Below, piece after piece: positions 7,154 to 56,947 of a stretch of DNA of 64,000 bases. Source of the stretch: Escherichia coli (GTDB taxonomy: Bacteria > Pseudomonadota > Gammaproteobacteria > Enterobacterales > Enterobacteriaceae). How positions within the stretch are numbered: position 1 is the stretch's first letter; each line of letters starts with the position of its first letter. The notes beneath the pieces were generated by a model that worked only from the letters and a program-made list of their open reading frames with translations, was not told where the DNA came from and ran no database searches. A program made the position numbers and the translations under genes. Location of the stretch: the NCBI RefSeq assembly GCF_003018235.1, contig NZ_CP027437.1; one strand, written 5' to 3'.

Positions 7154-7215
7154 CCTAAAGAATCAAGACGATCCGGTACGCGTGATTTTCTTTTCACATT
7201 AATCTGGTCAATAAC

Positions 7216-7243
7216 CTTGAATAATTGAGGGATGACCTCATTT
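7216..7243 (+). promoter_or_regulatory. Sigma32 heat-shock promoter of clpB (-35 CTTGAA, -10 CCTCATTT)
   Basis: Motif match to the sigma32 consensus, about 40 nt upstream of the clpB start. Confidence 0.6.
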
Positions 7244-7282
7244 AATCTCCAGTAGCAACTTTGATCCGTTATGGGAGGAGTT

Positions 7283-9856
7283 ATGCGTCTGGATCGTCTT
7301 ACTAATAAATTCCAGCTTGCTCTTGCCGATGCCCAATCACTTGCACTCGGGCACGACAACCAATTCATCGAACCACTTCATTTAATGAGCGCCCTGCTGA
7401 ATCAGGAAGGGGGTTCGGTTAGTCCTTTATTAACATCCGCTGGCATAAATGCTGGCCAGTTGCGCACAGATATCAATCAGGCATTAAATCGTTTACCGCA
7501 GGTTGAAGGTACTGGTGGTGATGTCCAGCCATCACAGGATCTGGTGCGCGTTCTTAATCTTTGCGACAAGCTGGCGCAAAAACGTGGTGATAACTTTATC
7601 TCGTCAGAACTGTTCGTTCTGGCGGCACTTGAGTCTCGCGGCACGCTGGCCGACATCCTGAAAGCAGCAGGGGCGACCACCGCCAACATTACTCAAGCGA
7701 TTGAACAAATGCGTGGAGGTGAAAGCGTGAACGATCAAGGTGCTGAAGACCAACGTCAGGCTTTGAAAAAATATACCATCGACCTTACCGAACGAGCCGA
7801 ACAGGGCAAACTCGATCCGGTGATTGGTCGTGATGAAGAAATTCGCCGTACCATTCAGGTGCTGCAACGTCGTACTAAAAATAACCCAGTACTGATTGGT
7901 GAACCCGGCGTCGGTAAAACTGCCATCGTTGAAGGTCTGGCGCAGCGTATTATCAACGGCGAAGTGCCGGAAGGGTTGAAAGGCCGCCGCGTACTGGCGC
8001 TGGATATGGGCGCGCTGGTGGCTGGGGCGAAATATCGCGGTGAGTTTGAAGAACGTTTAAAAGGCGTGCTTAACGATCTTGCCAAACAGGAAGGCAACGT
8101 CATCCTGTTTATCGACGAATTACATACCATGGTCGGCGCGGGTAAAGCCGATGGCGCAATGGACGCCGGAAACATGCTGAAACCGGCGCTGGCGCGTGGT
8201 GAATTGCACTGCGTAGGTGCCACGACGCTTGACGAATATCGCCAGTACATCGAAAAAGATGCTGCGCTGGAACGTCGTTTCCAGAAAGTGTTTGTTGCCG
8301 AGCCTTCTGTTGAAGATACCATTGCGATTCTGCGTGGCCTGAAAGAACGTTACGAATTGCACCACCATGTGCAAATTACTGACCCGGCAATTGTTGCAGC
8401 GGCGACGTTGTCTCATCGCTACATTGCTGACCGTCAGCTGCCGGATAAAGCCATCGACCTGATCGATGAAGCAGCATCCAGCATTCGTATGCAGATCGAC
8501 TCAAAACCAGAAGAACTCGACCGACTCGATCGTCGTATCATCCAGCTTAAACTGGAACAACAGGCGTTAATGAAAGAGTCTGATGAAGCCAGTAAAAAAC
8601 GCCTGGATATGCTCAACGAAGAACTGAGCGACAAAGAACGTCAGTACTCCGAGTTAGAAGAAGAGTGGAAAGCAGAGAAAGCATCGCTTTCTGGTACACA
8701 GACCATTAAAGCGGAACTGGAACAGGCGAAAATCGCTATTGAACAGGCTCGCCGTGTGGGTGACCTGGCGCGGATGTCTGAACTGCAATACGGCAAAATC
8801 CCGGAACTGGAAAAGCAACTGGAAGCCGCAACGCAGCTCGAAGGCAAAACTATGCGTCTGTTGCGTAATAAAGTGACCGATGCCGAAATTGCTGAAGTGC
8901 TGGCGCGTTGGACGGGGATTCCGGTTTCTCGCATGATGGAAAGCGAGCGCGAAAAACTGCTGCGTATGGAGCAAGAGCTGCACCATCGCGTTATTGGTCA
9001 GAACGAAGCGGTTGATGCGGTATCTAACGCTATTCGTCGTAGCCGTGCGGGGCTGGCGGATCCAAATCGCCCGATTGGTTCATTCCTGTTCCTCGGCCCA
9101 ACGGGTGTGGGGAAAACTGAGCTTTGTAAGGCGCTGGCGAACTTTATGTTTGATAGCGACGAGGCGATGGTCCGTATCGATATGTCCGAGTTTATGGAGA
9201 AACACTCGGTGTCTCGTCTGGTTGGTGCGCCTCCGGGATATGTCGGTTATGAAGAAGGTGGCTACCTGACCGAAGCGGTGCGTCGTCGTCCGTATTCCGT
9301 CATCCTGCTGGATGAAGTGGAAAAAGCGCATCCGGATGTCTTCAACATTCTGTTGCAGGTACTGGATGATGGGCGTCTGACTGACGGGCAGGGGAGAACG
9401 GTCGACTTCCGTAATACGGTTGTCATTATGACCTCTAACCTCGGTTCCGATTTGATTCAGGAACGCTTCGGTGAACTGGATTATGCGCACATGAAAGAGC
9501 TGGTGCTCGGTGTGGTAAGCCATAACTTCCGTCCGGAATTCATTAACCGTATCGATGAAGTGGTGGTCTTCCATCCGCTGGGTGAACAGCACATTGCGTC
9601 GATTGCGCAGATTCAGTTGAAACGTCTGTACAAACGTCTGGAAGAACGTGGTTATGAAATCCACATTTCTGACGAGGCGCTGAAACTGCTGAGCGAGAAC
9701 GGTTACGATCCGGTCTATGGTGCACGTCCTCTGAAACGTGCTATCCAGCAGCAGATCGAAAACCCGCTGGCACAGCAAATACTGTCTGGTGAATTGGTTC
9801 CGGGTAAAGTTATTCGCCTGGAAGTTAATGAAGACCGGATTGTCGCCGTCCAGTAA
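7283..9856 (+). CDS. clpB: Disaggregase chaperone ClpB (AAA+); internal GTG at 7727 (codon 149) is the known start of the short ClpB isoform
   Basis: 857 aa from the ATG at 7283 (GGGAGGAG Shine-Dalgarno); the ORF track begins 4 codons earlier at 7271; two Walker A motifs. Confidence 0.95.
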
Positions 9857-9863
9857 TGATAAA

Positions 9864-9888
9864 ACGAGCCCTTCGGGGCTCGTTTTTG
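9864..9888 (+). terminator. Rho-independent terminator after clpB
   Basis: ACGAGCCC-TTCG-GGGCTCGT hairpin followed by TTTTT. Confidence 0.8.
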
Positions 9889-9970
9889 TCTATAAATTAG
9901 ACGGAAAAGACTATGCTTAAGATGTTTTGCCTGAAAAATGAGCGAACGATAAAGTTTTTATATTTTTTGC

Positions 9971-9998
9971 TTGTCAGGCCGGAATAACTCCCTATAAT
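9971..9998 (+). promoter_or_regulatory. rRNA operon promoter P1 (-35 TTGTCA, 16-bp spacer, -10 TATAAT, GC-rich discriminator) with an AT-rich UP element upstream
   Basis: Classic rrn P1 architecture read directly. Confidence 0.75.
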
Positions 9999-10088
9999 GC
10001 GCCACCACTGACACGGAACAACGGCAAACACGCCGCCGGGTCAGCGGGGTTCTCCTGAGAATCTCAACAGAGTCAAGCAAGAAAATGC

Positions 10089-10116
10089 TTGACTCTGTAG
10101 CGGGAAAGCGTATTAT
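10089..10116 (+). promoter_or_regulatory. rRNA operon promoter P2 (-35 TTGACT, 16-bp spacer, -10 TATTAT)
   Basis: Motif reading. Confidence 0.65.
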
Positions 10117-10297
10117 GCACACCCCGCGCCGCTGAGAAAAAGCGAGGCGGCACTGCTCTTTAACAATTTATCAGACAATCTGTGTGGGCACTCGAAGATA
10201 CGGATTCTTAACGTCGCAAGACGAAAAATGAATACCAAGTCTCAAGAGTGAACACGTAATTCATTACGAAGTTTAATTCTTTGAGCATCAAACTTTT

Positions 10298-11839
<1,542 letters not shown>

Positions 11840-11924
11840 CCTTAAAGAACTGTGCTTTGCAGTGCTCACACAGATTGTCTGATGAAAAGTGAAAAGCAAG
11901 GCGTCTTGCGAAGCAGACTGATAC

Positions 11925-12000
11925 GTCCCCTTCGTCTAGAGGCCCAGGACACCGCCCTTTCACGGCGGTAACAGGGGTTCGAATCCCCTAGGGGACGCCA
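11925..12000 (+). tRNA. gltW: tRNA-Glu (UUC) in the 16S-23S spacer
   Basis: GTCCCCTTCGTCTAGAGG ... GGGGACGCCA, 76 nt ending in CCA. Confidence 0.95.
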
Positions 12001-12193
12001 CTTGCTGGTTTGTGAGTGAAAGTCACCTGCCTTAATATCTCAAAACTCATCTTCGGGTGACGTTTGAGATATTTGCTCTTTAAAAATCTGGATCAAGCTG
12101 AAAATTGAAACACTGAACAACGAAAGTTGTTCGTGAGTCTCTCAAATTTTCGCAACACGATGATGAATCGAAAGAAACATCTTCGGGTTGTGA

Positions 12194-15097
<2,904 letters not shown>

Positions 15098-15189
15098 ACA
15101 ACGCCGAAGCTGTTTTGGCGGATGAGAGAAGATTTTCAGCCTGATACAGATTAAATCAGAACGCAGAAGCGGTCTGATGAAACAGAATT

Positions 15190-15309
15190 TGCCTGGCGGC
15201 CTTAGCGCGGTGGTCCCACCTGACCCCATGCCGAACTCAGAAGTGAAACGCCGTAGCGCCGATGGTAGTGTGGGGTCTCCCCATGCGAGAGTAGGGAACT
15301 GCCAGGCAT
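15190..15309 (+). rRNA. rrfG: 5S ribosomal RNA
   Basis: TGCCTGGCGGC ... GCCAGGCAT; 120 nt. Confidence 0.97.
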
Positions 15310-15324
15310 CAAATTAAGCAGAAG

Positions 15325-15348
15325 GCCATCCTGACGGATGGCTTTTTT
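15325..15348 (+). terminator. rRNA operon terminator T1
   Basis: GCCATCC-TGAC-GGATGGC hairpin followed by TTTTTT. Confidence 0.8.
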
Positions 15349-15367
15349 GCATTGGCGCAGAAAAAAT

Positions 15368-15396
15368 GCCGGATGCGACGCTGGCGCGTCTTATAC
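15368..15396. repeat. Degenerate REP-like element (GCCGGATGCGACGCTGGCGCGTCTTAT)
   Basis: Resembles the REP consensus GCCGGATGCGGCG...CTTATC but lacks the closing half. Confidence 0.35.
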
Positions 15397-15631
15397 TCCC
15401 ACATAAGCTAGATTCAGCAGCGAATACGGCTTCCCAAACTTGCCCACCTCCATACGTGTCCTCCTTACCAGAAATTTATCCTTAAGCTCCTCAATAACCA
15501 TTTTCCTGCTAACTAAATTCATGGTTAAGGTTGCATAATGATGCGCAACAAATGTATAACATTTTCTTTACCAAAAAAATAAACAACAGCGACCGACAAA
15601 AGCATCGGATTACGGCAGGAGATATAATGGC

Positions 15632-24624: not shown

Positions 24625-24806
24625 CTCGCTCTCCCGCGAATCTTCAATCCGCCTAGCTTAACTGCTTCTTTCTACAGAACAAAATCATGCTCATTTTTTA
24701 GACTTAAACGAGTGCAAAAAATGTAAATTGGTAAAATTTCACACCTGCATAAGTTGATGTAAAACAATAAAATCCATTTGCGACCATGCTTGATGTGTGG
24801 TTTTTA

Positions 24807-24820
24807 TTGATTTAAATCAA
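24807..24820 (+). promoter_or_regulatory. FNR/CRP-family binding site TTGAT-N4-ATCAA upstream of grcA
   Basis: Perfect palindrome TTGATTTAAATCAA about 110 nt upstream of the grcA start. Confidence 0.65.
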
Positions 24821-32446: not shown

Positions 32447-33402
32447 TGAAGCAACTTTGGTTTGCCATGTCATTAGTGACAGGTAGCCTGTTATTCTCTG
32501 CTAACGCCTCGGCCACTCCCGCGTCCGGGGCGTTATTACAGCAGATGAACCTGGCCAGTCAGTCACTGAATTACGAGCTGTCATTCATCAGCATCAATAA
32601 ACAGGGTGTTGAGTCTCTGCGTTATCGACATGCACGCCTCGATAACCGTCCTCTTGCACAATTGTTGCAAATGGATGGCCCGCGCCGGGAAGTGGTACAG
32701 CGCGGCAATGAAATCAGCTATTTTGAACCGGGACTTGAACCGTTCACGCTTAATGGCGATTACATTGTTGATTCTCTACCATCGCTCATCTATACCGATT
32801 TCAAACGCCTTTCTCCTTACTACGACTTTATCTCCGTCGGGCGCACGCGTATTGCTGATCGTCTTTGCGAAGTCATTCGTGTGGTTGCCCGAGATGGTAC
32901 ACGCTACAGCTACATCGTGTGGATGGACACCGAATCGAAATTACCGATGCGGGTTGATCTCCTTGATCGCGATGGTGAAACGCTGGAACAATTTCGCGTG
33001 ATTGCTTTTAATGTCAATCAGGATATCAGCAGCAGTATGCAGACGCTGGCGAAGGCAAATTTGCCGCCGTTGCTTTCTGTTCCTGTAGGTGAAAAAGCTA
33101 AATTCAGCTGGACGCCAACCTGGTTGCCACAGGGTTTTAGCGAAGTTTCCAGTAGTCGACGTCCGCTACCGACGATGGACAACATGCCTATCGAATCACG
33201 TCTCTATTCCGACGGATTATTCAGCTTCTCGGTAAACGTTAACCGCGCTACGCCATCGAGCACCGATCAGATGTTGCGCACCGGGCGCAGAACCGTCAGT
33301 ACAAGCGTACGTGATAACGCCGAAATCACCATTGTCGGTGAACTGCCGCCGCAAACGGCGAAACGCATTGCCGAGAATATTAAGTTCGGGGCAACGCAAT
33401 GA
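32446..33402 (+). CDS. rseB: SigmaE regulatory protein RseB (periplasmic)
   Basis: 318 aa; TAATG overlap with rseA. Confidence 0.95.
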   Translation: MKQLWFAMSLVTGSLLFSANASATPASGALLQQMNLASQSLNYELSFISINKQGVESLRYRHARLDNRPLAQLLQMDGPRREVVQRGNEISYFEPGLEPFTLNGDYIVDSLPSLIYTDFKRLSPYYDFISVGRTRIADRLCEVIRVVARDGTRYSYIVWMDTESKLPMRVDLLDRDGETLEQFRVIAFNVNQDISSSMQTLAKANLPPLLSVPVGEKAKFSWTPTWLPQGFSEVSSSRRPLPTMDNMPIESRLYSDGLFSFSVNVNRATPSSTDQMLRTGRRTVSTSVRDNAEITIVGELPPQTAKRIAENIKFGATQ

Positions 33403-33878
33403 TCAAAGAGTGGGCTACCGTCGTCTCCTGGGAAAACGGGCAGGCGCTGGTTAGTTGTGATGTTAAAGCCTCATGCAGCAGCTGCGCTTCACGTGCCGGT
33501 TGCGGTAGCCGCGTGTTGAATAAACTTGGCCCGCAAACCACGCATACCATTGTCGTACCCTGTGATGAGCCGTTAGTGCCGGGGCAAAAAGTAGAATTAG
33601 GAATCGCCGAAGGCAGCCTGCTTAGCTCCGCATTACTGGTTTATATGTCGCCGCTGGTGGGATTATTCCTCATCGCTTCACTATTTCAGCTACTCTTTGC
33701 TTCAGATATTGCAGCATTATGCGGTGCGATTCTCGGTGGCGTTGGTGGATTCCTGATTGCACGTGGCTGCTCTCGAAAGTTTGCTGCCCGGGCAGAATGG
33801 CAACCGATCATCTTAAGCGTGGCATTGCCGCCTGGCCTTGTGCGATTTGAAACATCTTCGGAAGACGCGAGCCAGTGA
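33399..33878 (+). CDS. rseC: RseC (SoxR-reducing system / sigmaE regulatory protein)
   Basis: 159 aa; ATGA overlap with rseB. Confidence 0.9.
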   Translation: MIKEWATVVSWENGQALVSCDVKASCSSCASRAGCGSRVLNKLGPQTTHTIVVPCDEPLVPGQKVELGIAEGSLLSSALLVYMSPLVGLFLIASLFQLLFASDIAALCGAILGGVGGFLIARGCSRKFAARAEWQPIILSVALPPGLVRFETSSEDASQ

Positions 33879-34075
33879 TTTCACTGGCTTTGTTGCATTT
33901 TGCATAACAAATGCGAGGACGTTTCCAGATACCACAATCCATACGGTATGAACATTTCCTCGCCTCAATGTTGTAGTGTAGAATGCGGCGTTTCTATTAA
34001 TACAGACGTTAAGCTCAGAACAGCGACTTCTAAAAGCCTGGTTAACCGGGCATTAAGGCACAATAATCATACTTT

Positions 34076-35875
<1,800 letters not shown>

Positions 35876-36915: not shown

Positions 36916-37107
36916 TTATGAGATAAATCTCCCGTGGCTAACGACATCCCCCGTCGTTGTGTATAGAATATTCCCCCGAAGTTTAAGGTTGGCACCTCCA
37001 GGTTGCCACGGCACACGAAACAGCGTTGGTCCCCATATACCGGTAAACTGAAACTGCAGCGAAGCAGTTAGCAGAACCATGTATATCAGGTCTGTTTCGT
37101 GTGCTGA

Positions 37108-38720
<1,613 letters not shown>

Positions 38721-40583: not shown

Positions 40584-40605
40584 AAAAATACCGTTCTCTT
40601 TATAA

Positions 40606-40680
40606 AGTAAAACCCCCGAACTGGTAAGGAACGGGGGTTTTCACTTTACAACTTTAATTTTGTGCAGCACACGATTCCAA
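40606..40680 (-). ncRNA. ohsC: Putative OhsC antisense sRNA (antitoxin of shoB); extent approximate
   Basis: Known K-12 arrangement (divergent from shoB); minus-strand terminator at 40608..40641 and a candidate -10 CATAAT about 40689..40694; boundaries are inferred. Confidence 0.3.
40608..40641. terminator. Bidirectional hairpin terminator (acpS on +; presumed ohsC on -)
   Basis: CCCCCG / CGGGGG stem flanked by an A-run and a T-run. Confidence 0.7.
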
Positions 40681-41004
40681 CAGAAATGATTATGGATCAA
40701 TTTCGTTATCCTGTACAAGCAACTTGCAATCTCTGACATAAAAAACGCGAGCCTTTACGAAGAAATCGACATTGATAAAAAGATTAACGTGACCGCTTTT
40801 TGATAAGTACATTAAAATCGGTTTCGTTATTGGCAATTTTGCTGTGCTTTACACCATGCCACTGAATTCCCCCATTGAAACGAGTGGTGTCGTCAAAGCT
40901 CTGGTGTGGAGTGCAGCACTCGATTCCAATAACTCGCACGTTCAGTTTTGGGGAGATGTAAGGGCTAATCTGAACGGCTGCATTCCTTGTTTAAGGAAAA
41001 ACGA

Positions 41005-42443: not shown

Positions 42444-42651
42444 ATCTTTCCTCGCGATGAAATAGTGGCGACAACAGGCAATATGAGACACACGCGCGTG
42501 AATTTTATATTCCATTGCTGCTAATTGCCATGAATTAAAAATTCCAGTTAGCCATGATGTGGTCGATTGTTGCCGGAAAAGTAATGATCTATCTGTTAGG
42601 CTATGTAGTAGCGAAAATTAATCAGGATGTTTCAGTCCAGAGGAGTATGGT

Positions 42652-43287
42652 TTGGCAACTCACGAGCGTCGTGTGGTGTTTTTTGACTTAGATGGAACAT
42701 TGCATCAGCAGGATATGTTCGGCAGTTTTTTGCGTTATTTACTGCGTCGCCAACCGCTGAATGCGTTACTTGTCCTGCCGCTGTTGCCGATCATTGCCAT
42801 TGCGTTATTGATAAAAGGTCGTGCGGCACGCTGGCCGATGAGTCTGCTTCTGTGGGGGTGCACTTTTGGTCACAATGAAGCACGTTTACAGACGTTGCAG
42901 GCCGATTTCGTACGCTGGTTTCGTGACAATGTTACCGCCTTTCCGCTGGTGCAGGAGCGTTTAACCACCTACCTGTTAAGTTCCGATGCTGATATCTGGT
43001 TGATTACCGGCTCTCCGCAGCCGCTGGTTGAAGCGGTTTATTTCGATACGCCCTGGCTGCCGCGGATTAATCTTATCGCCAGTCAGATTCAGCGTGGCTA
43101 TGGTGGTTGGGTATTGACGATGCGTTGTCTGGGACATGAAAAGGTCGCGCAACTGGAGCGTAAAATCGGCACGCCACTGCGGTTGTACAGTGGCTATAGC
43201 GACAGTAATCAGGACAACCCGCTGCTTTATTTCTGTCAGCATCGTTGGCGAGTAACCCCGCGCGGTGAACTCCAGCAACTGGAATAG
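42652..43287 (+). CDS. pgpC: Phosphatidylglycerophosphatase C (HAD-like)
   Basis: 211 aa; N-terminal DLDGTL HAD motif. Confidence 0.9.
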   Translation: MATHERRVVFFDLDGTLHQQDMFGSFLRYLLRRQPLNALLVLPLLPIIAIALLIKGRAARWPMSLLLWGCTFGHNEARLQTLQADFVRWFRDNVTAFPLVQERLTTYLLSSDADIWLITGSPQPLVEAVYFDTPWLPRINLIASQIQRGYGGWVLTMRCLGHEKVAQLERKIGTPLRLYSGYSDSNQDNPLLYFCQHRWRVTPRGELQQLE

Positions 43288-45566: not shown

Positions 45567-45582
45567 ACGCAAACGGTTTCGT
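45567..45582 (+). promoter_or_regulatory. PurR operator-like box ACGCAAACGGTTTCGT upstream of purL
   Basis: Close match to the PurR consensus ACGCAAACGTTTGCGT, about 75 nt upstream of the purL start. Confidence 0.6.
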
Positions 45583-49860: not shown

Positions 49861-50050
49861 AGTGGCTCATTCACCGACTTATGTCAGCCCCTTCGGGACG
49901 TGCTACATAAAATTCGAATGACGCACAACAAGGTGCCTGCCGTCCAACTTCTGATATCAGCGTAGCTATATCAACCATCGGGCGAAACGTCGAGTTAGGC
50001 ACCGCCTTATTCCATAACAAAGCCGGGTAATTCCCGGCTTTGTTGTATCT
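49861..50050 (+). ncRNA. glmY: GlmY small RNA (regulator of glmS via GlmZ/RapZ)
   Basis: Starts AGTGGCTCATTCACCGACTTATGTCAGCCCCTTCGGG as recalled for GlmY; ends at the terminator AAAGCCGGGTAATTCCCGGCTTTGTT. Confidence 0.85.
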
Positions 50051-54175: not shown

Positions 54176-55366
54176 TCACAGCACCTTATGCGGGCCAAAG
54201 CATTCGTAATGAATGTTTTCCTGCTTCACGCCCAGATCCACTAACTGTTTCGCGGCAAACTGCATGAAGCCAACCGGGCCGCAGAGATAGAACTGCATTG
54301 TCGGATCGCTGAACGCACCTTCCAGTTTGCTCAAATCCATCAGACCTTCGCTATCAAACTGACCTTTAGCGCGATCGGCTTCGCTTGGCTGACGATACCA
54401 GGTGTGCGCGGTAAAGCGCGGCAGTGCTTGCCCCAGTTCCTTAACTTCATCGGCAAAGGCGTGAACATCGCCATTTTCTGCCGCATGGAACCAGTTCACT
54501 TGTGCTGTGTGGCCAGCTTTTGCCAGCGTGTCGAGCATTGCCAGCATTGGCGTTTGACCGACACCGGCAGAGATTAACGTCACTGGTGTGTCATCTGCGA
54601 CAGCCATAAAGAAATCACCTGCTGGAGCAACCAGTTTCACGACATCGCCAACATTGGCGTGATTGTGCAGCCAGTTGGATACCTGCCCACCCTCTTCGCG
54701 TTTCACCGCAATACGATAGCCTTTGCCATCCGGTTTGCGAGTCAAAGAGTACTGACGAATTTCCTGATGCGGGAAACCTTCCGGCTTCAGCCAGACGCCG
54801 AGATATTGCCCCGGACGGTATTCTGCCACTGCGCCACCGTCGACCGGCTCCAGTTCGAAGCTGGTGATAAGTGCGCTGCGCGGTGTTTTAGCCACAATGC
54901 GGAAATCGCGAGTACCTTCCCAGCCACCGGCTTTGCTGGCGTTTTCGTTATAGATTTCCGCCTCGCGATTGATAAATACATTAGCCAGTACGCCATAGGC
55001 TTTACCCCACGCGTCCAGCACTTCCTGGCCCGGGCTGAACATTTCGTCCAGCGTCGCCAACAGGTGTTCACCGACAATGTTGTACTGTTCCGGTTTGATC
55101 TGGAAGCTGGTGTGCTTCTGCGCGATTTTTTCTACCGCTGGCAGCAGCGCAGGCAGGTTTTCAATATTACTGGCGTAGGCGGCAATAGCGTTAAACAGGG
55201 CTTCACGTTGATCGCCATTGCGCTGGTTACTCATGTTAAAAATTTCTTTGAGTTCTGGGTTATGAGTAAACATACGGTCGTAGAAATGGGCGGTTAACTT
55301 TGGCCCCGTTTCCACCAGTAAAGGGATGGTGGCTTTTACTGTAGCGATGGTTTGAGCGTCAAGCAT
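54176..55366 (-). CDS. hmp: Flavohemoglobin (nitric oxide dioxygenase)
   Basis: 396 aa from [11 protein letters not shown]; globin plus FAD/NAD reductase domains. Confidence 0.95.
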
Positions 55367-55394
55367 ATGGTCTTCCTTTTTTTGCATCTTAATT

Positions 55395-55415
55395 GATGTA
55401 TCTCAAATGCATCTT
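55395..55415 (-). promoter_or_regulatory. NsrR operator in the hmp promoter (AAGATGCATTTGAGATACATC on the minus strand)
   Basis: Matches the well-known hmp NsrR site as recalled. Confidence 0.7.
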
Positions 55416-55693
55416 ATAAAAAATAGCCCTGCAATGTAAATGGTTCTTTGGTGTTTTTCAGAAAGAATGTGATGAAGTGAAAAATTTGCATCACAAACCT
55501 GAAAAGAAATCCGTTTCCGGTTGCAAGCTCTTTATTCTCCAAAGCCTTGCGCAGCCTGAAGGTAATCGTTTGCGTAAATTCCTTTGTCAAGACCTGTTAT
55601 CGCACAATGATTCGGTTATACTGTTCGCCGTTGTCCAACAGGACCGCCTATAAAGGCCAAAAATTTTATTGTTAGCTGAGTCAGGAGATGCGG

Positions 55694-56947
55694 ATGTTAA
55701 AGCGTGAAATGAACATTGCCGATTATGATGCCGAACTGTGGCAGGCTATGGAGCAGGAAAAAGTACGTCAGGAAGAGCACATCGAACTGATCGCCTCCGA
55801 AAACTACACCAGCCCGCGCGTAATGCAGGCGCAGGGTTCTCAGCTGACCAACAAATATGCTGAAGGTTATCCGGGCAAACGCTACTACGGCGGTTGCGAG
55901 TATGTTGATATCGTTGAACAACTGGCGATCGATCGTGCGAAAGAACTGTTCGGTGCTGACTACGCTAACGTCCAGCCGCACTCCGGCTCCCAGGCTAACT
56001 TTGCGGTGTACACCGCGCTGCTGGAACCAGGTGATACCGTTCTGGGTATGAACCTGGCGCATGGCGGTCACCTGACTCACGGTTCTCCGGTTAACTTCTC
56101 CGGTAAACTGTACAACATCGTTCCTTACGGTATCGATGCTAGCGGTCATATCGACTACGCCGATCTGGAAAAACAAGCCAAAGAACACAAACCGAAAATG
56201 ATTATCGGTGGCTTCTCTGCATATTCCGGCGTGGTGGACTGGGCGAAAATGCGTGAAATCGCTGACAGCATCGGTGCTTACCTGTTCGTTGATATGGCGC
56301 ACGTTGCGGGCCTGGTTGCTGCTGGCGTCTACCCGAACCCGGTTCCTCATGCTCACGTTGTTACTACCACCACTCACAAAACCCTGGCGGGTCCGCGCGG
56401 TGGCCTGATCCTGGCGAAAGGTGGTAGCGAAGAGCTGTACAAAAAACTGAACTCTGCCGTTTTCCCTGGTGGTCAGGGCGGTCCGTTGATGCACGTAATC
56501 GCCGGTAAAGCGGTTGCTCTGAAAGAAGCGATGGAGCCTGAGTTCAAAACTTACCAGCAGCAGGTCGCTAAAAACGCTAAAGCGATGGTAGAAGTGTTCC
56601 TGGAACGCGGCTACAAAGTGGTTTCCGGCGGCACTGATAACCACCTGTTCCTGGTTGATCTGGTTGATAAAAAACTGACCGGTAAAGAAGCGGACGCCGC
56701 TCTGGGCCGTGCTAACATCACCGTCAACAAAAACAGCGTACCGAACGATCCGAAGAGCCCGTTTGTGACCTCCGGTATTCGCGTGGGTACTCCGGCGATT
56801 ACCCGTCGTGGCTTTAAAGAAGCCGAAGCGAAAGAACTGGCTGGCTGGATGTGTGACGTGCTGGACAGCATCAATGATGAAGCGGTTATTGAGCGCATCA
56901 AAGGTAAAGTTCTCGACATCTGTGCACGTTACCCGGTTTACGCATAA
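55694..56947 (+). CDS. glyA: Serine hydroxymethyltransferase
   Basis: 417 aa from [12 protein letters not shown]. Confidence 0.97.

What the first reader, a model, noticed from the sequence alone, without database searches (positions are those of the whole stretch)
55367..55693. Divergent hmp-glyA control region with an intact NsrR operator
The palindrome AAGATGCATTTGAGATACATC (minus strand, 55395..55415) sits just upstream of the hmp start, matching the NO-responsive NsrR site as I recall it. The same 327-bp region must also hold the glyA promoter.
Basis: partly seen in the sequence, partly recalled or inferred. Interest (0 to 1): 0.25.

Follow-up and report, generated by a model that had tools for sequence, protein, structure and literature searches.

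The report
Known NsrR operator at E. coli hmp

Summary
The window is E. coli chromosome, with hmp on the minus strand (54176..55366), glyA on the plus strand (55694..56947) and a 327-bp gap between them. That gap differs from K-12 MG1655 by one SNP (55552).

The full operator is 23 bp (55393..55415, 11-1-11 layout) and is identical to the ChIP-seq-positive hmp site published for strain CFT073.

A weight matrix built from 25 other published NsrR sites ranks it first in the 64-kb window: 18.5-19.1 bits against 12.5 for the runner-up, with 0.01-0.035 such hits expected by chance.

In 87 of 87 Enterobacteriaceae/Erwiniaceae species an equivalent site lies about 38 nt upstream of the hmp ATG. It is the best 23-mer of every locus, and none of 4,376 control windows exceeds 12.9 bits.

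The operator covers the predicted hmp -10 hexamer and start site and embeds a 9/10 FNR box. The same gap holds conserved MetR-like and PurR boxes and the glyA promoter.

The sequence is only loosely palindromic (7 of 11 symmetric positions).

One minor new point: Escherichia carries the weakest NsrR match of all the species, through the same bases that form the FNR box.

Verdict: already known, low interest.

The parts
54176..55366 (-). hmp (hmpA) coding sequence, NO-inducible flavohaemoprotein / NO dioxygenase
   Evidence: ORF list. NCBIfam NF009805, 628.8 bits. Annotated as hmpA in identical strains and as hmp in K-12.
55372..55378 (-). hmp ribosome-binding site, AAGGAAG
   Evidence: Sequence. 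Conserved at 70-100% across 82 species.
55380..55390 (-). Auxiliary single 11-bp NsrR half-site, AAGATGCAAAA, in the hmp 5' UTR
   Evidence: Listed as 'hmp (19)' with a low PatSer score of 5.00 in Table 2 of PMC5320621. Found only in Escherichia species among the 87 species compared. Poorly conserved elsewhere. Its function was not tested.
55393..55415 (-). NsrR operator, 11-1-11 inverted repeat, AAGATGCATTT-G-AGATACATCAA. The left half matches the AAGATGCATTT motif 11/11 and the right half 7/11.
   Evidence: Identical to the published ChIP-seq-positive site. Top matrix hit of the window. An orthologous site is present in 87 of 87 species.
55393..55406 (-). FNR box TTGAGATACATCAA, 9 of 10 matches to TTGAT-N4-ATCAA, embedded in the right part of the NsrR operator
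   Evidence: Consensus scan. FNR repression of hmp is cited in PMC2884951 and PMC1274295. Boxes with at least 9/10 matches occur only in Escherichia, Salmonella and Citrobacter.
55411..55416 (-). Predicted hmp -10 hexamer, TAAGAT. It overlaps the left half of the operator. The inferred start site is G at 55404, the central base of the operator.
   Evidence: Promoter scan TTTACA-18-TAAGAT. All six bases are conserved at 90% or more. The start site is inferred, not measured here.
55435..55440 (-). Predicted hmp -35 hexamer, TTTACA
   Evidence: Promoter scan. 100% conserved in 82 species.
55478..55512 (.). Conserved block holding two MetR-like boxes, TGAAAAATTTGCA (55478-55490) and TGAAAAGAAATCC (55500-55512), with centres 22 bp apart
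   Evidence: About 90-100% conserved across 82 species. The first box is a 1-mismatch match to TGAA-N5-TTCA. Two MetR sites in the hmp-glyA region are reported in the literature (PMC5002191). The exact published footprints could not be read.
55560..55575 (-). PurR box, ACGCAAACGATTACCT, 13 of 16 matches to ACGCAAACGTTTGCGT
   Evidence: Consensus scan. The core CGTTTGCGTAA is 100% conserved in 82 species, with the next base at 90% or more.
55584..55622 (+). glyA core promoter region: TTGTCA (55584-55589), a scan-predicted -10 AATGAT (55606-55611), and a fully conserved TATACT (55617-55622)
   Evidence: Promoter scan. Conservation profile. Which hexamer is the true -10 was not resolved here.
55694..56947 (+). 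glyA coding sequence, serine hydroxymethyltransferase
   Evidence: ORF list. NCBIfam NF000586, 678 bits. Annotation.

Best explanation
Window 55393..55415 is the operator of NsrR, the nitric-oxide-sensing repressor of the Rrf2 family, at the E. coli hmp promoter.

Shown here:
- The 23-bp 11-1-11 site is identical to the published, ChIP-positive hmp site.
- It is the only strong NsrR-matrix match in 64 kb.
- It is conserved in position and sequence across Enterobacteriaceae.

Inferred from the promoter prediction and conservation: the operator spans about -12 to +12 of the hmp promoter (TTTACA-18-TAAGAT, start near 55404). A bound NsrR dimer would therefore block RNA polymerase.

Taken from the literature: holo-NsrR carries an Fe-S cluster. 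NO nitrosylates the cluster, DNA binding is lost, and hmp is derepressed, producing the NO dioxygenase.

The operator embeds an FNR box, which gives a second, anaerobic repression input. The same 327-bp gap also carries MetR boxes, a PurR box and the glyA promoter, so it is a shared divergent control region.
For: - The site is identical to the CFT073 hmp site (ChIP-seq +, ln P -18.22, peak 3.79-fold), and the same paper lists hmp among the K-12 ChIP-chip targets.
- Matrix with the hmp site left out: 18.5-19.1 bits, rank 1 in the window, runner-up 12.5, 0.01-0.035 expected by chance.
- hmp loci were selected only on the Hmp N-terminal codons. In 87 of 87 with enough flank there is a 17.9-31.1-bit site centred 29-50 nt (mode 38) upstream of the ATG.
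- That site is the best 23-mer of each whole locus, and 4,376 control windows reach at most 12.9 bits.
- The orthologous Salmonella site, AAGATGCATTTGATATACATCAT, is the modelled NsrR target, and an hmp probe covering the NsrR site is shifted by NsrR in an NO-sensitive way in gel-shift assays (PMC10783083).
- The operator overlaps the predicted -10 hexamer.
- The hexamers TTTACA and TAAGAT are 90-100% conserved.
- nsrR is present in 5,425 of 5,426 E. coli genomes.
- The 35-bp core is identical in 5,194 of 5,426 genomes.
- Reviews state that NsrR is the main NO-responsive repressor of hmp.
Against: - Nothing contradicts this reading.
- The published matrix sites were themselves selected with a matrix that included hmp, so leaving hmp out does not make the test fully independent.
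- The right half-site is weak (7/11) and the ChIP enrichment is modest (3.79-fold, against 9.65 for ytfE and 12.00 for hcp).
- The hmp transcription start was not measured here, and the primary mapping and footprint papers were not available.
- The window's own genome cannot be checked for nsrR.
Confidence: 0.95

Rival explanations
1. The element is primarily an FNR operator (TTGAGATACATCAA, 55393..55406) that represses hmp anaerobically, and the NsrR match is incidental.
For: - It matches the FNR consensus at 9 of 10 positions.
- FNR repression of hmp and NO inactivation of FNR are reported in the literature.
- One Escherichia lineage (MOD1-EC7003) carries a perfect 10/10 box at the same position.
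Against: - At one mismatch or fewer the window holds 6 such boxes against 2.08 expected, so the match alone is weak evidence.
- Boxes with at least 9/10 matches are confined to Escherichia, Salmonella and Citrobacter, whereas the NsrR site is present in all 87 species (also stated in PMC1274295).
- The perfectly conserved left half, AAGATGCATTT, lies mostly outside the FNR box.
- NsrR occupies the site in vivo by ChIP.
- FNR is best read as an additional overlapping input, not a replacement. That FNR also acts here is likely (about 0.6). That it is the sole explanation is not.
Confidence: 0.03
2. A chance, AT-rich, loosely palindromic sequence with no regulatory role.
For: The symmetry is weak: 7 of 11 positions, and 551 23-mers in the window are as symmetric or more so. 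No inverted repeat is found with a 6-nt seed.
Against: - The matrix score sits 6 bits above any other position in 64 kb, with 0.01-0.035 expected by chance.
- The site is conserved in 87 of 87 species at a fixed distance from the ATG, and none of 4,376 control windows comes near it.
- Published ChIP data show occupancy.
Confidence: 0.005
3. The conserved sequence acts at the RNA level, as a hairpin in the hmp 5' UTR that controls translation or stability.
For: The right half of the operator and the auxiliary half-site would be transcribed, and they contain a CATC...GATG complement.
Against: - The inferred start at 55404 leaves the perfectly conserved left half untranscribed.
- The possible stem is only 4 bp.
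- The downstream partner (55380-55390) is not conserved outside Escherichia.
- Rfam finds nothing in the intergenic region.
Confidence: 0.01

Closest known systems
E. coli K-12 / CFT073 hmp NsrR binding site (Bodenmiller & Spiro 2006; Partridge et al. 2009; Mehta et al. 2015, PMC5320621)
   Same: Identical 23-bp sequence, the same distance from the hmp ATG, the same divergent glyA neighbour, and the same auxiliary half-site AAGATGCAAAA.
   Different: Nothing in the operator. The window's intergenic region has one SNP relative to K-12 (55552, C here and T in K-12 on the + strand), in a poorly conserved stretch outside all recognised sites.
Salmonella Typhimurium hmp NsrR site, AAGATGCATTTGATATACATCAT (PMC10783083)
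   Same: Orthologous position, identical left half, 11-1-11 layout. An hmp probe covering the NsrR site is shifted by NsrR in an NO-sensitive way in gel-shift assays.
   Different: E. coli has G instead of T at position 14 and A instead of T at position 23. The matrix score is 17.9 bits against 25.2.
ytfE NsrR operator, AAGATGCATTTAAAATGCATCTT (the near-consensus site)
   Same: Same 11-1-11 family and identical left half.
   Different: ytfE is a near-perfect palindrome with ChIP enrichment of 9.65-fold. hmp has a degenerate right half and 3.79-fold enrichment.
FNR site at the hmp promoter (Poole et al. 1996; Cruz-Ramos et al. 2002)
   Same: TTGAGATACATCAA, a 9/10 match to the consensus, overlapping the start-site region. 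From memory, it was reported as centred at +5.5, which agrees with a start at 55404.
   Different: This is not a separate element. It lies inside the NsrR operator, so the two repressors should compete for or share the same DNA.

Membership tests
NsrR (Rrf2-family) operator, enterobacterial 11-1-11 type | 23-bp site made of two inverted 11-bp motifs (AAGATGCATTT-like) separated by 1 bp, scoring within the range of validated sites | tested here: met
   18.5-19.1 bits with the hmp site left out of the matrix; training sites span 12.2-31.6 bits. Left half 11/11, right half 7/11.
NsrR (Rrf2-family) operator, enterobacterial 11-1-11 type | Position overlapping the core promoter of a nitrosative-stress gene, as expected for a repressor | tested here: met
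   The site lies 28-50 nt upstream of the hmp ATG and overlaps the predicted -10 hexamer TAAGAT. The start site itself is inferred, not measured.
NsrR (Rrf2-family) operator, enterobacterial 11-1-11 type | Conservation of the site at orthologous promoters | tested here: met
   87 of 87 species carry it, and it is the top 23-mer of each locus. None of 4,376 control windows exceeds 12.9 bits.
NsrR (Rrf2-family) operator, enterobacterial 11-1-11 type | Cognate regulator gene present in the genome | tested here: met
   nsrR is present in 5,425 of 5,426 complete E. coli genomes. It cannot be checked in the window's own genome, because nsrR lies about 1.7 Mb away in K-12 coordinates.
NsrR (Rrf2-family) operator, enterobacterial 11-1-11 type | Occupancy by NsrR in vivo or in vitro | not testable with these tools
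   Literature only: ChIP-seq peak on the identical sequence in CFT073, ChIP-chip in K-12, and gel shift with a Salmonella hmp probe covering the orthologous site.
NsrR (Rrf2-family) operator, enterobacterial 11-1-11 type | NO-responsive derepression of the downstream gene that depends on the site | not testable with these tools
   Literature only. The primary paper, Bodenmiller & Spiro 2006, is not held.
FNR (CRP/FNR family) binding site | TTGAT-N4-ATCAA with at most 1 mismatch at a promoter-proximal position | tested here: met
   TTGAGATACATCAA at 55393-55406, a 9/10 match. The statistics are weak: 6 such boxes in the window against 2.08 expected.
FNR (CRP/FNR family) binding site | Conservation at orthologous promoters | tested here: inconclusive
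   Boxes with at least 9/10 matches occur only in Escherichia, Salmonella and Citrobacter. Other genera have 3-8 of 10. This agrees with PMC1274295.
MetR (LysR-type) binding sites | Tandem TGAA-N5-TTCA boxes upstream of the regulated promoter | tested here: inconclusive
   One 1-mismatch box (55478-55490) and one weaker box (55500-55512). The consensus alone is uninformative: 22 matches in the window against 28.6 expected. However, the block is 90-100% conserved, and the literature reports two MetR sites in this region.
PurR operator (pur regulon box) | 16-bp ACGCAAACGTTTGCGT-like palindrome near the promoter | tested here: met
   13 of 16 matches at 55560-55575. It is one of only two such matches in the window (the other is upstream of purL), with 0.58 expected. 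The core is 100% conserved.

The most novel reading that the evidence does not exclude
In the Escherichia lineage the hmp operator may have been deliberately weakened for NsrR. Position 14 G and position 23 A cost about 8.6 matrix bits, giving 17.9 bits against 27.1 for the family-majority site, the lowest of 87 species. These same substitutions build the overlapping FNR box.

A lineage-specific extra half-site, AAGATGCAAAA, sits 2 nt downstream and might compensate. If so, this would be an evolutionary trade-off between two Fe-S repressors sharing one stretch of DNA, and it would tune how easily hmp escapes repression.

The pattern is in the data (Spearman -0.47, not corrected for phylogeny). 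Its functional meaning is untested, and parts of it are already hinted at in the literature: the restricted conservation of the FNR site, and low-affinity NsrR promoters that escape repression.
Probability: 0.25. Interest if true: 0.25.

Novelty: already known. Interest (0 to 1): 0.06.

Why it matters
It matters little as a discovery. The hmp-glyA control region is among the best characterised NO-responsive promoters, and the site here is base-for-base the published one. It also shows, with an unbiased 87-species sample, how strictly the operator is conserved. The only mildly new observation is that Escherichia carries the weakest NsrR match in the family because of the bases that create the FNR box. 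That could interest people modelling graded derepression of hmp or building NO biosensors from this promoter.

Tried and rejected
- **Primary papers.** I tried to read Bodenmiller & Spiro 2006 (PMC1347358), Cruz-Ramos 2002 (PMC126088), Lorenz & Stauffer 1995 (PMC177144) and Karlinsey 2012 (PMC3438343). None is held. Exact published footprints and start sites therefore could not be quoted, and the start site (55404) and the '+5.5' FNR position rest on inference and memory.
- **Biosensor literature.** A search for a description of the promoter found nothing useful.
- **Inverted repeats.** The repeat finder found none. This rules out symmetry as the source of significance.
- **MetR consensus scan.** On its own it is no better than chance. 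Only conservation supports those boxes.
- **Rfam.** It finds no RNA family in the intergenic region, which argues against an RNA-level reading.
- **Strain used for context.** CFSAN061763 is not colinear with the first ~15 kb of the window (an IS3 element and an offset near the rrn operon). I used its annotation only for the purL and grcA neighbourhoods.
- **glyA -10 hexamer.** I could not decide between AATGAT (scan prediction, poorly conserved) and TATACT (100% conserved but with a poor -35 at 17 bp).

Full report
**1. What is in the sequence**

The window around the finding is E. coli chromosome. An 851-bp query spanning the region matches 5,425 of 5,426 complete E. coli genomes once each. 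Many matches are at 100% identity, and the flanking genes are annotated hmpA and glyA.

The flanking ORFs score as NO-inducible flavohaemoprotein (NF009805, 628.8 bits) and serine hydroxymethyltransferase (NF000586, 678 bits). glnB lies downstream of hmp, and a ROK-family regulator (yphH in K-12) lies on the far side of glyA.

The mechanical ORF list extends both genes to upstream in-frame ATGs. The K-12 annotation and alignment place the true starts at 55366 (hmp, minus strand) and 55694 (glyA, plus strand). It differs from K-12 MG1655 at a single base, 55552 (C here, T in K-12 on the + strand).

**2.

It is only loosely a palindrome. Taken as the 23-bp 11-1-11 unit, 7 of 11 positions are symmetric. 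In the window, 551 other 23-mers are at least that symmetric, and the repeat finder reports no inverted repeat in the region even with a 6-nt seed. Symmetry alone therefore says nothing.

**3. Match to NsrR**

Table 4 of Mehta et al. 2015 (PMC5320621) lists the hmp NsrR site of strain CFT073 as TTGATGTATCTCAAATGCATCTT, ChIP-seq positive. This is identical to window 55393..55415 on the + strand.

Table 2 of the same paper gives:
- a ChIP-seq peak between glyA and hmp (3.79-fold enrichment);
- a perfect half-site AAGATGCATTT 44 nt from the start codon;
- a weak extra half-site AAGATGCAAAA 19 nt from it, which is window 55380..55390.

The paper also notes that hmp was a target in the K-12 ChIP-chip study.

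I built a symmetrised matrix from the 25 other distinct sites of Table 4 and scanned the whole window. The hmp site ranks first at 18.5 bits, or 19.1 bits with ChIP-positive sites only. The runner-up scores 12.5 bits. In 200 first-order Markov simulations of 64 kb, the mean number of hits at or above the hmp score was 0.035 and 0.01 respectively.

One caveat applies. The published sites were selected with a matrix that included hmp, so leaving hmp out does not make the test fully independent.

**4. Independent evidence from other species**

To sample hmp promoters without reference to the operator, I scanned the species-representative genome collection with a degenerate DNA pattern encoding the Hmp N-terminus, [12 protein letters not shown]. 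This returned 90 loci from Enterobacteriaceae, plus Pantoea and Mixta.

- In all 87 loci with at least 84 nt of upstream flank there is a 17.9-31.1-bit 11-1-11 match centred 29-50 nt (mode 38) upstream of the ATG.
- In all 82 loci with enough flank, glyA is divergent, with a gap of 272-337 bp.
- In 87 of 87 loci this site is the best 23-mer of the entire locus (728 kb scanned in total).
- None of 4,376 control 150-nt windows exceeds 12.9 bits.

The Salmonella version, AAGATGCATTTGATATACATCAT, is the modelled NsrR target, and an hmp probe covering the NsrR site is shifted by NsrR in an NO-sensitive way in gel-shift assays (PMC10783083). Rodionov et al. 2005 (PMC1274295) had already predicted this conserved site by comparative genomics.

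**5. Anatomy of the control region**

A phylogenetic footprint of the 82 intergenic regions resolves discrete conserved blocks. Combined with the consensus scans they read as follows, in window coordinates.

| Element | Coordinates | Support |
|---|---|---|
| hmp ribosome-binding site AAGGAAG | 55372-55378 (-) | conserved |
| NsrR operator | 55393-55415 | |
| hmp -10 TAAGAT | 55411-55416 (-) | promoter scan; at least 90% conserved |
| hmp -35 TTTACA, 18-nt spacer | 55435-55440 (-) | promoter scan; 100% conserved |
| MetR-like boxes TGAAAAATTTGCA and TGAAAAGAAATCC, 22 bp apart | 55478-55512 | 90-100% conserved block |
| PurR box ACGCAAACGATTACCT | 55560-55575 (-) | 13/16 match; CGTTTGCGTAA 100% conserved |
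| glyA promoter zone: TTGTCA, AATGAT, TATACT | 55584-55622 (+) | |

- **hmp promoter.** The predicted hexamers imply a start near G 55404, the central base of the operator. The operator would then span about -12 to +12. This agrees with my recollection that Cruz-Ramos et al. 2002 placed the FNR site at +5.5. That figure is from memory, because the paper is not held.
- **MetR.** The literature reports two MetR sites in this region that control both glyA and hmp (PMC5002191). The consensus alone is not significant: 22 matches in the window against 28.6 expected.
- **PurR.** The box is one of only two matches of 13/16 or better in the window.
- **glyA promoter.** TTGTCA lies at 55584-55589, the scan-predicted -10 AATGAT at 55606-55611, and a 100%-conserved TATACT at 55617-55622. 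I could not decide which hexamer is the true -10.

The K-12 SNP at 55552 falls in a poorly conserved stretch between blocks.

**6. Overlapping FNR box**

TTGAGATACATCAA (55393-55406, minus strand) matches the FNR consensus at 9 of 10 positions. It lies entirely inside the right part of the NsrR operator.

FNR repression of hmp is in the literature. Statistically the match is weak on its own: 6 boxes in the window against 2.08 expected. Two of those six are the pair upstream of grcA. Boxes with at least 9/10 matches occur only in Escherichia, Salmonella and Citrobacter, as Rodionov et al. noted. FNR is therefore an added, lineage-restricted input rather than an alternative identity for the element.

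**7. Mechanism**

- **Shown here:** identity, statistical significance, conservation and promoter overlap of the operator, and the species-wide presence of nsrR (5,425 of 5,426 genomes).
- **From the literature:** NsrR is an Fe-S repressor. NO reacts with the cluster, DNA binding falls, and hmp is derepressed.
- **Inferred:** repression works by occluding the -10 hexamer and start site.

**8. Population variation**

- The 35-bp core (55387-55421) is identical in 5,194 of 5,426 genomes. The rest are unresolved, because megablast needs a 28-nt exact word.
- Over 70 bp (55372-55441), 3,650 genomes are identical and 1,768 differ.
- The checked example, strain 83972, has A8 instead of A7 between the auxiliary half-site and the ribosome-binding site.
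- Five genomes, including MS14384, carry a 29-bp tandem duplication that doubles the FNR box, the right half-site and the auxiliary half-site.

**9. A minor new angle**

Four Escherichia species representatives (E. coli, E. albertii, E. whittamii and Escherichia sp. E1V33) share the E. coli operator, and it is the lowest-scoring of the 87 (17.9 bits, against 27.1 for the family-majority site AAGATGCATTTAAAATACATCAT). The fifth Escherichia lineage, MOD1-EC7003, differs: it scores 22.7 bits and carries the perfect 10/10 FNR box noted above.

The loss comes from G at position 14 (about 6.1 bits) and A at position 23 (about 2.5 bits). These bases are part of the FNR box. Only those four Escherichia loci carry the extra AAGATGC half-site 2 nt downstream.

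Across species, NsrR score and FNR-box match are negatively correlated (Spearman -0.47). This is not corrected for phylogeny, and the position-14 penalty rests on a 25-site matrix. The modest ChIP enrichment at hmp (3.79-fold, against 9.65 for ytfE and 12.00 for hcp) is consistent with a weaker site. This is suggestive, not demonstrated.

**10. Verdict**

The element is already known in full detail, so interest is low.

Noticed in passing
window 42527-42549 (yfhH-pgpC intergenic region; pgpC CDS about 42634-43269): pgpC (yfhB) is listed as an NsrR ChIP target in both K-12 and CFT073, with no motif assigned (PMC5320621 Table 2). My matrix finds only a weak 23-mer here, GCCATGAATTAAAAATTCCAGTT (9.4-11.1 bits). 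That is below the chance maximum for 64 kb (mean 13.7), so the basis of that ChIP signal is unexplained.
   Followed up: partly
window 45567-45582: PurR box ACGCAAACGGTTTCGT (14/16 to consensus), 58-73 nt upstream of the purL start (45640). This is the expected purL operator, and it is the only other match of 13/16 or better in the window besides glyA.
   Followed up: partly
window 24754-24767 and 24807-24820: A perfect FNR box, TTGATTTAAATCAA, and a 1-mismatch box 53 bp upstream of it, both upstream of grcA (yfiD; CDS from 24904). This fits the known dual-FNR-site yfiD promoter, which I recall from memory.
   Followed up: partly
window 55377-55383 (T-run on +, A7 tract in hmp sense): Homopolymer length polymorphism in the hmp 5' UTR, between the auxiliary half-site and the ribosome-binding site. 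It is A7 here and in K-12, and A8 in strain 83972. 1,768 of 5,418 genomes differ from the window somewhere in the 70-bp stretch 55372-55441, and the sampled ones span 71 bp.
   Followed up: partly
L093 (E. coli MS14384) 376-432; corresponds to window about 55380-55409: A 29-bp tandem duplication (ATTTGAGATACATCAATTAAGATGCAAAA in hmp sense) that doubles the FNR box, the right NsrR half-site and the auxiliary half-site. It is present in 5 of 5,426 complete genomes. Its effect on hmp regulation is unknown.
   Followed up: partly
window 55393-55415 compared with L002-L091: The operator shared by four Escherichia species representatives has the lowest NsrR matrix score of 87 species (17.9 against a majority of 27.1). 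The deviating bases create the FNR box, and an extra AAGATGC half-site occurs only in those four loci.
   Followed up: yes
window 7164-7302, 10298-15307, 33363-34194, 36978-37192, 40604-40681, 49861-50008: Rfam gathering-score hits elsewhere in the window: RyfD, a complete rrn operon with tRNA-Glu, the AsrC antisense RNA of rseC, the rncO leader, the OhsC antitoxin next to shoB, and GlmY. All are expected for this E. coli region.
   Followed up: no
window about 8800-15400 compared with L094 (strain CFSAN061763): The strain that is 100% identical over the hmp-glyA region is not colinear with the start of the window. It has an IS3-family transposase downstream of the rrn operon, and the 16S gene is offset by about 1.5 kb relative to the window.
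   Followed up: no
L049 (contig labelled Chryseobacterium sp. 18061): A contig filed under Chryseobacterium carries an enterobacterial-type hmp-glyA locus with a 28-bit NsrR site. This is most likely contamination or a mislabelled assembly.
   Followed up: no
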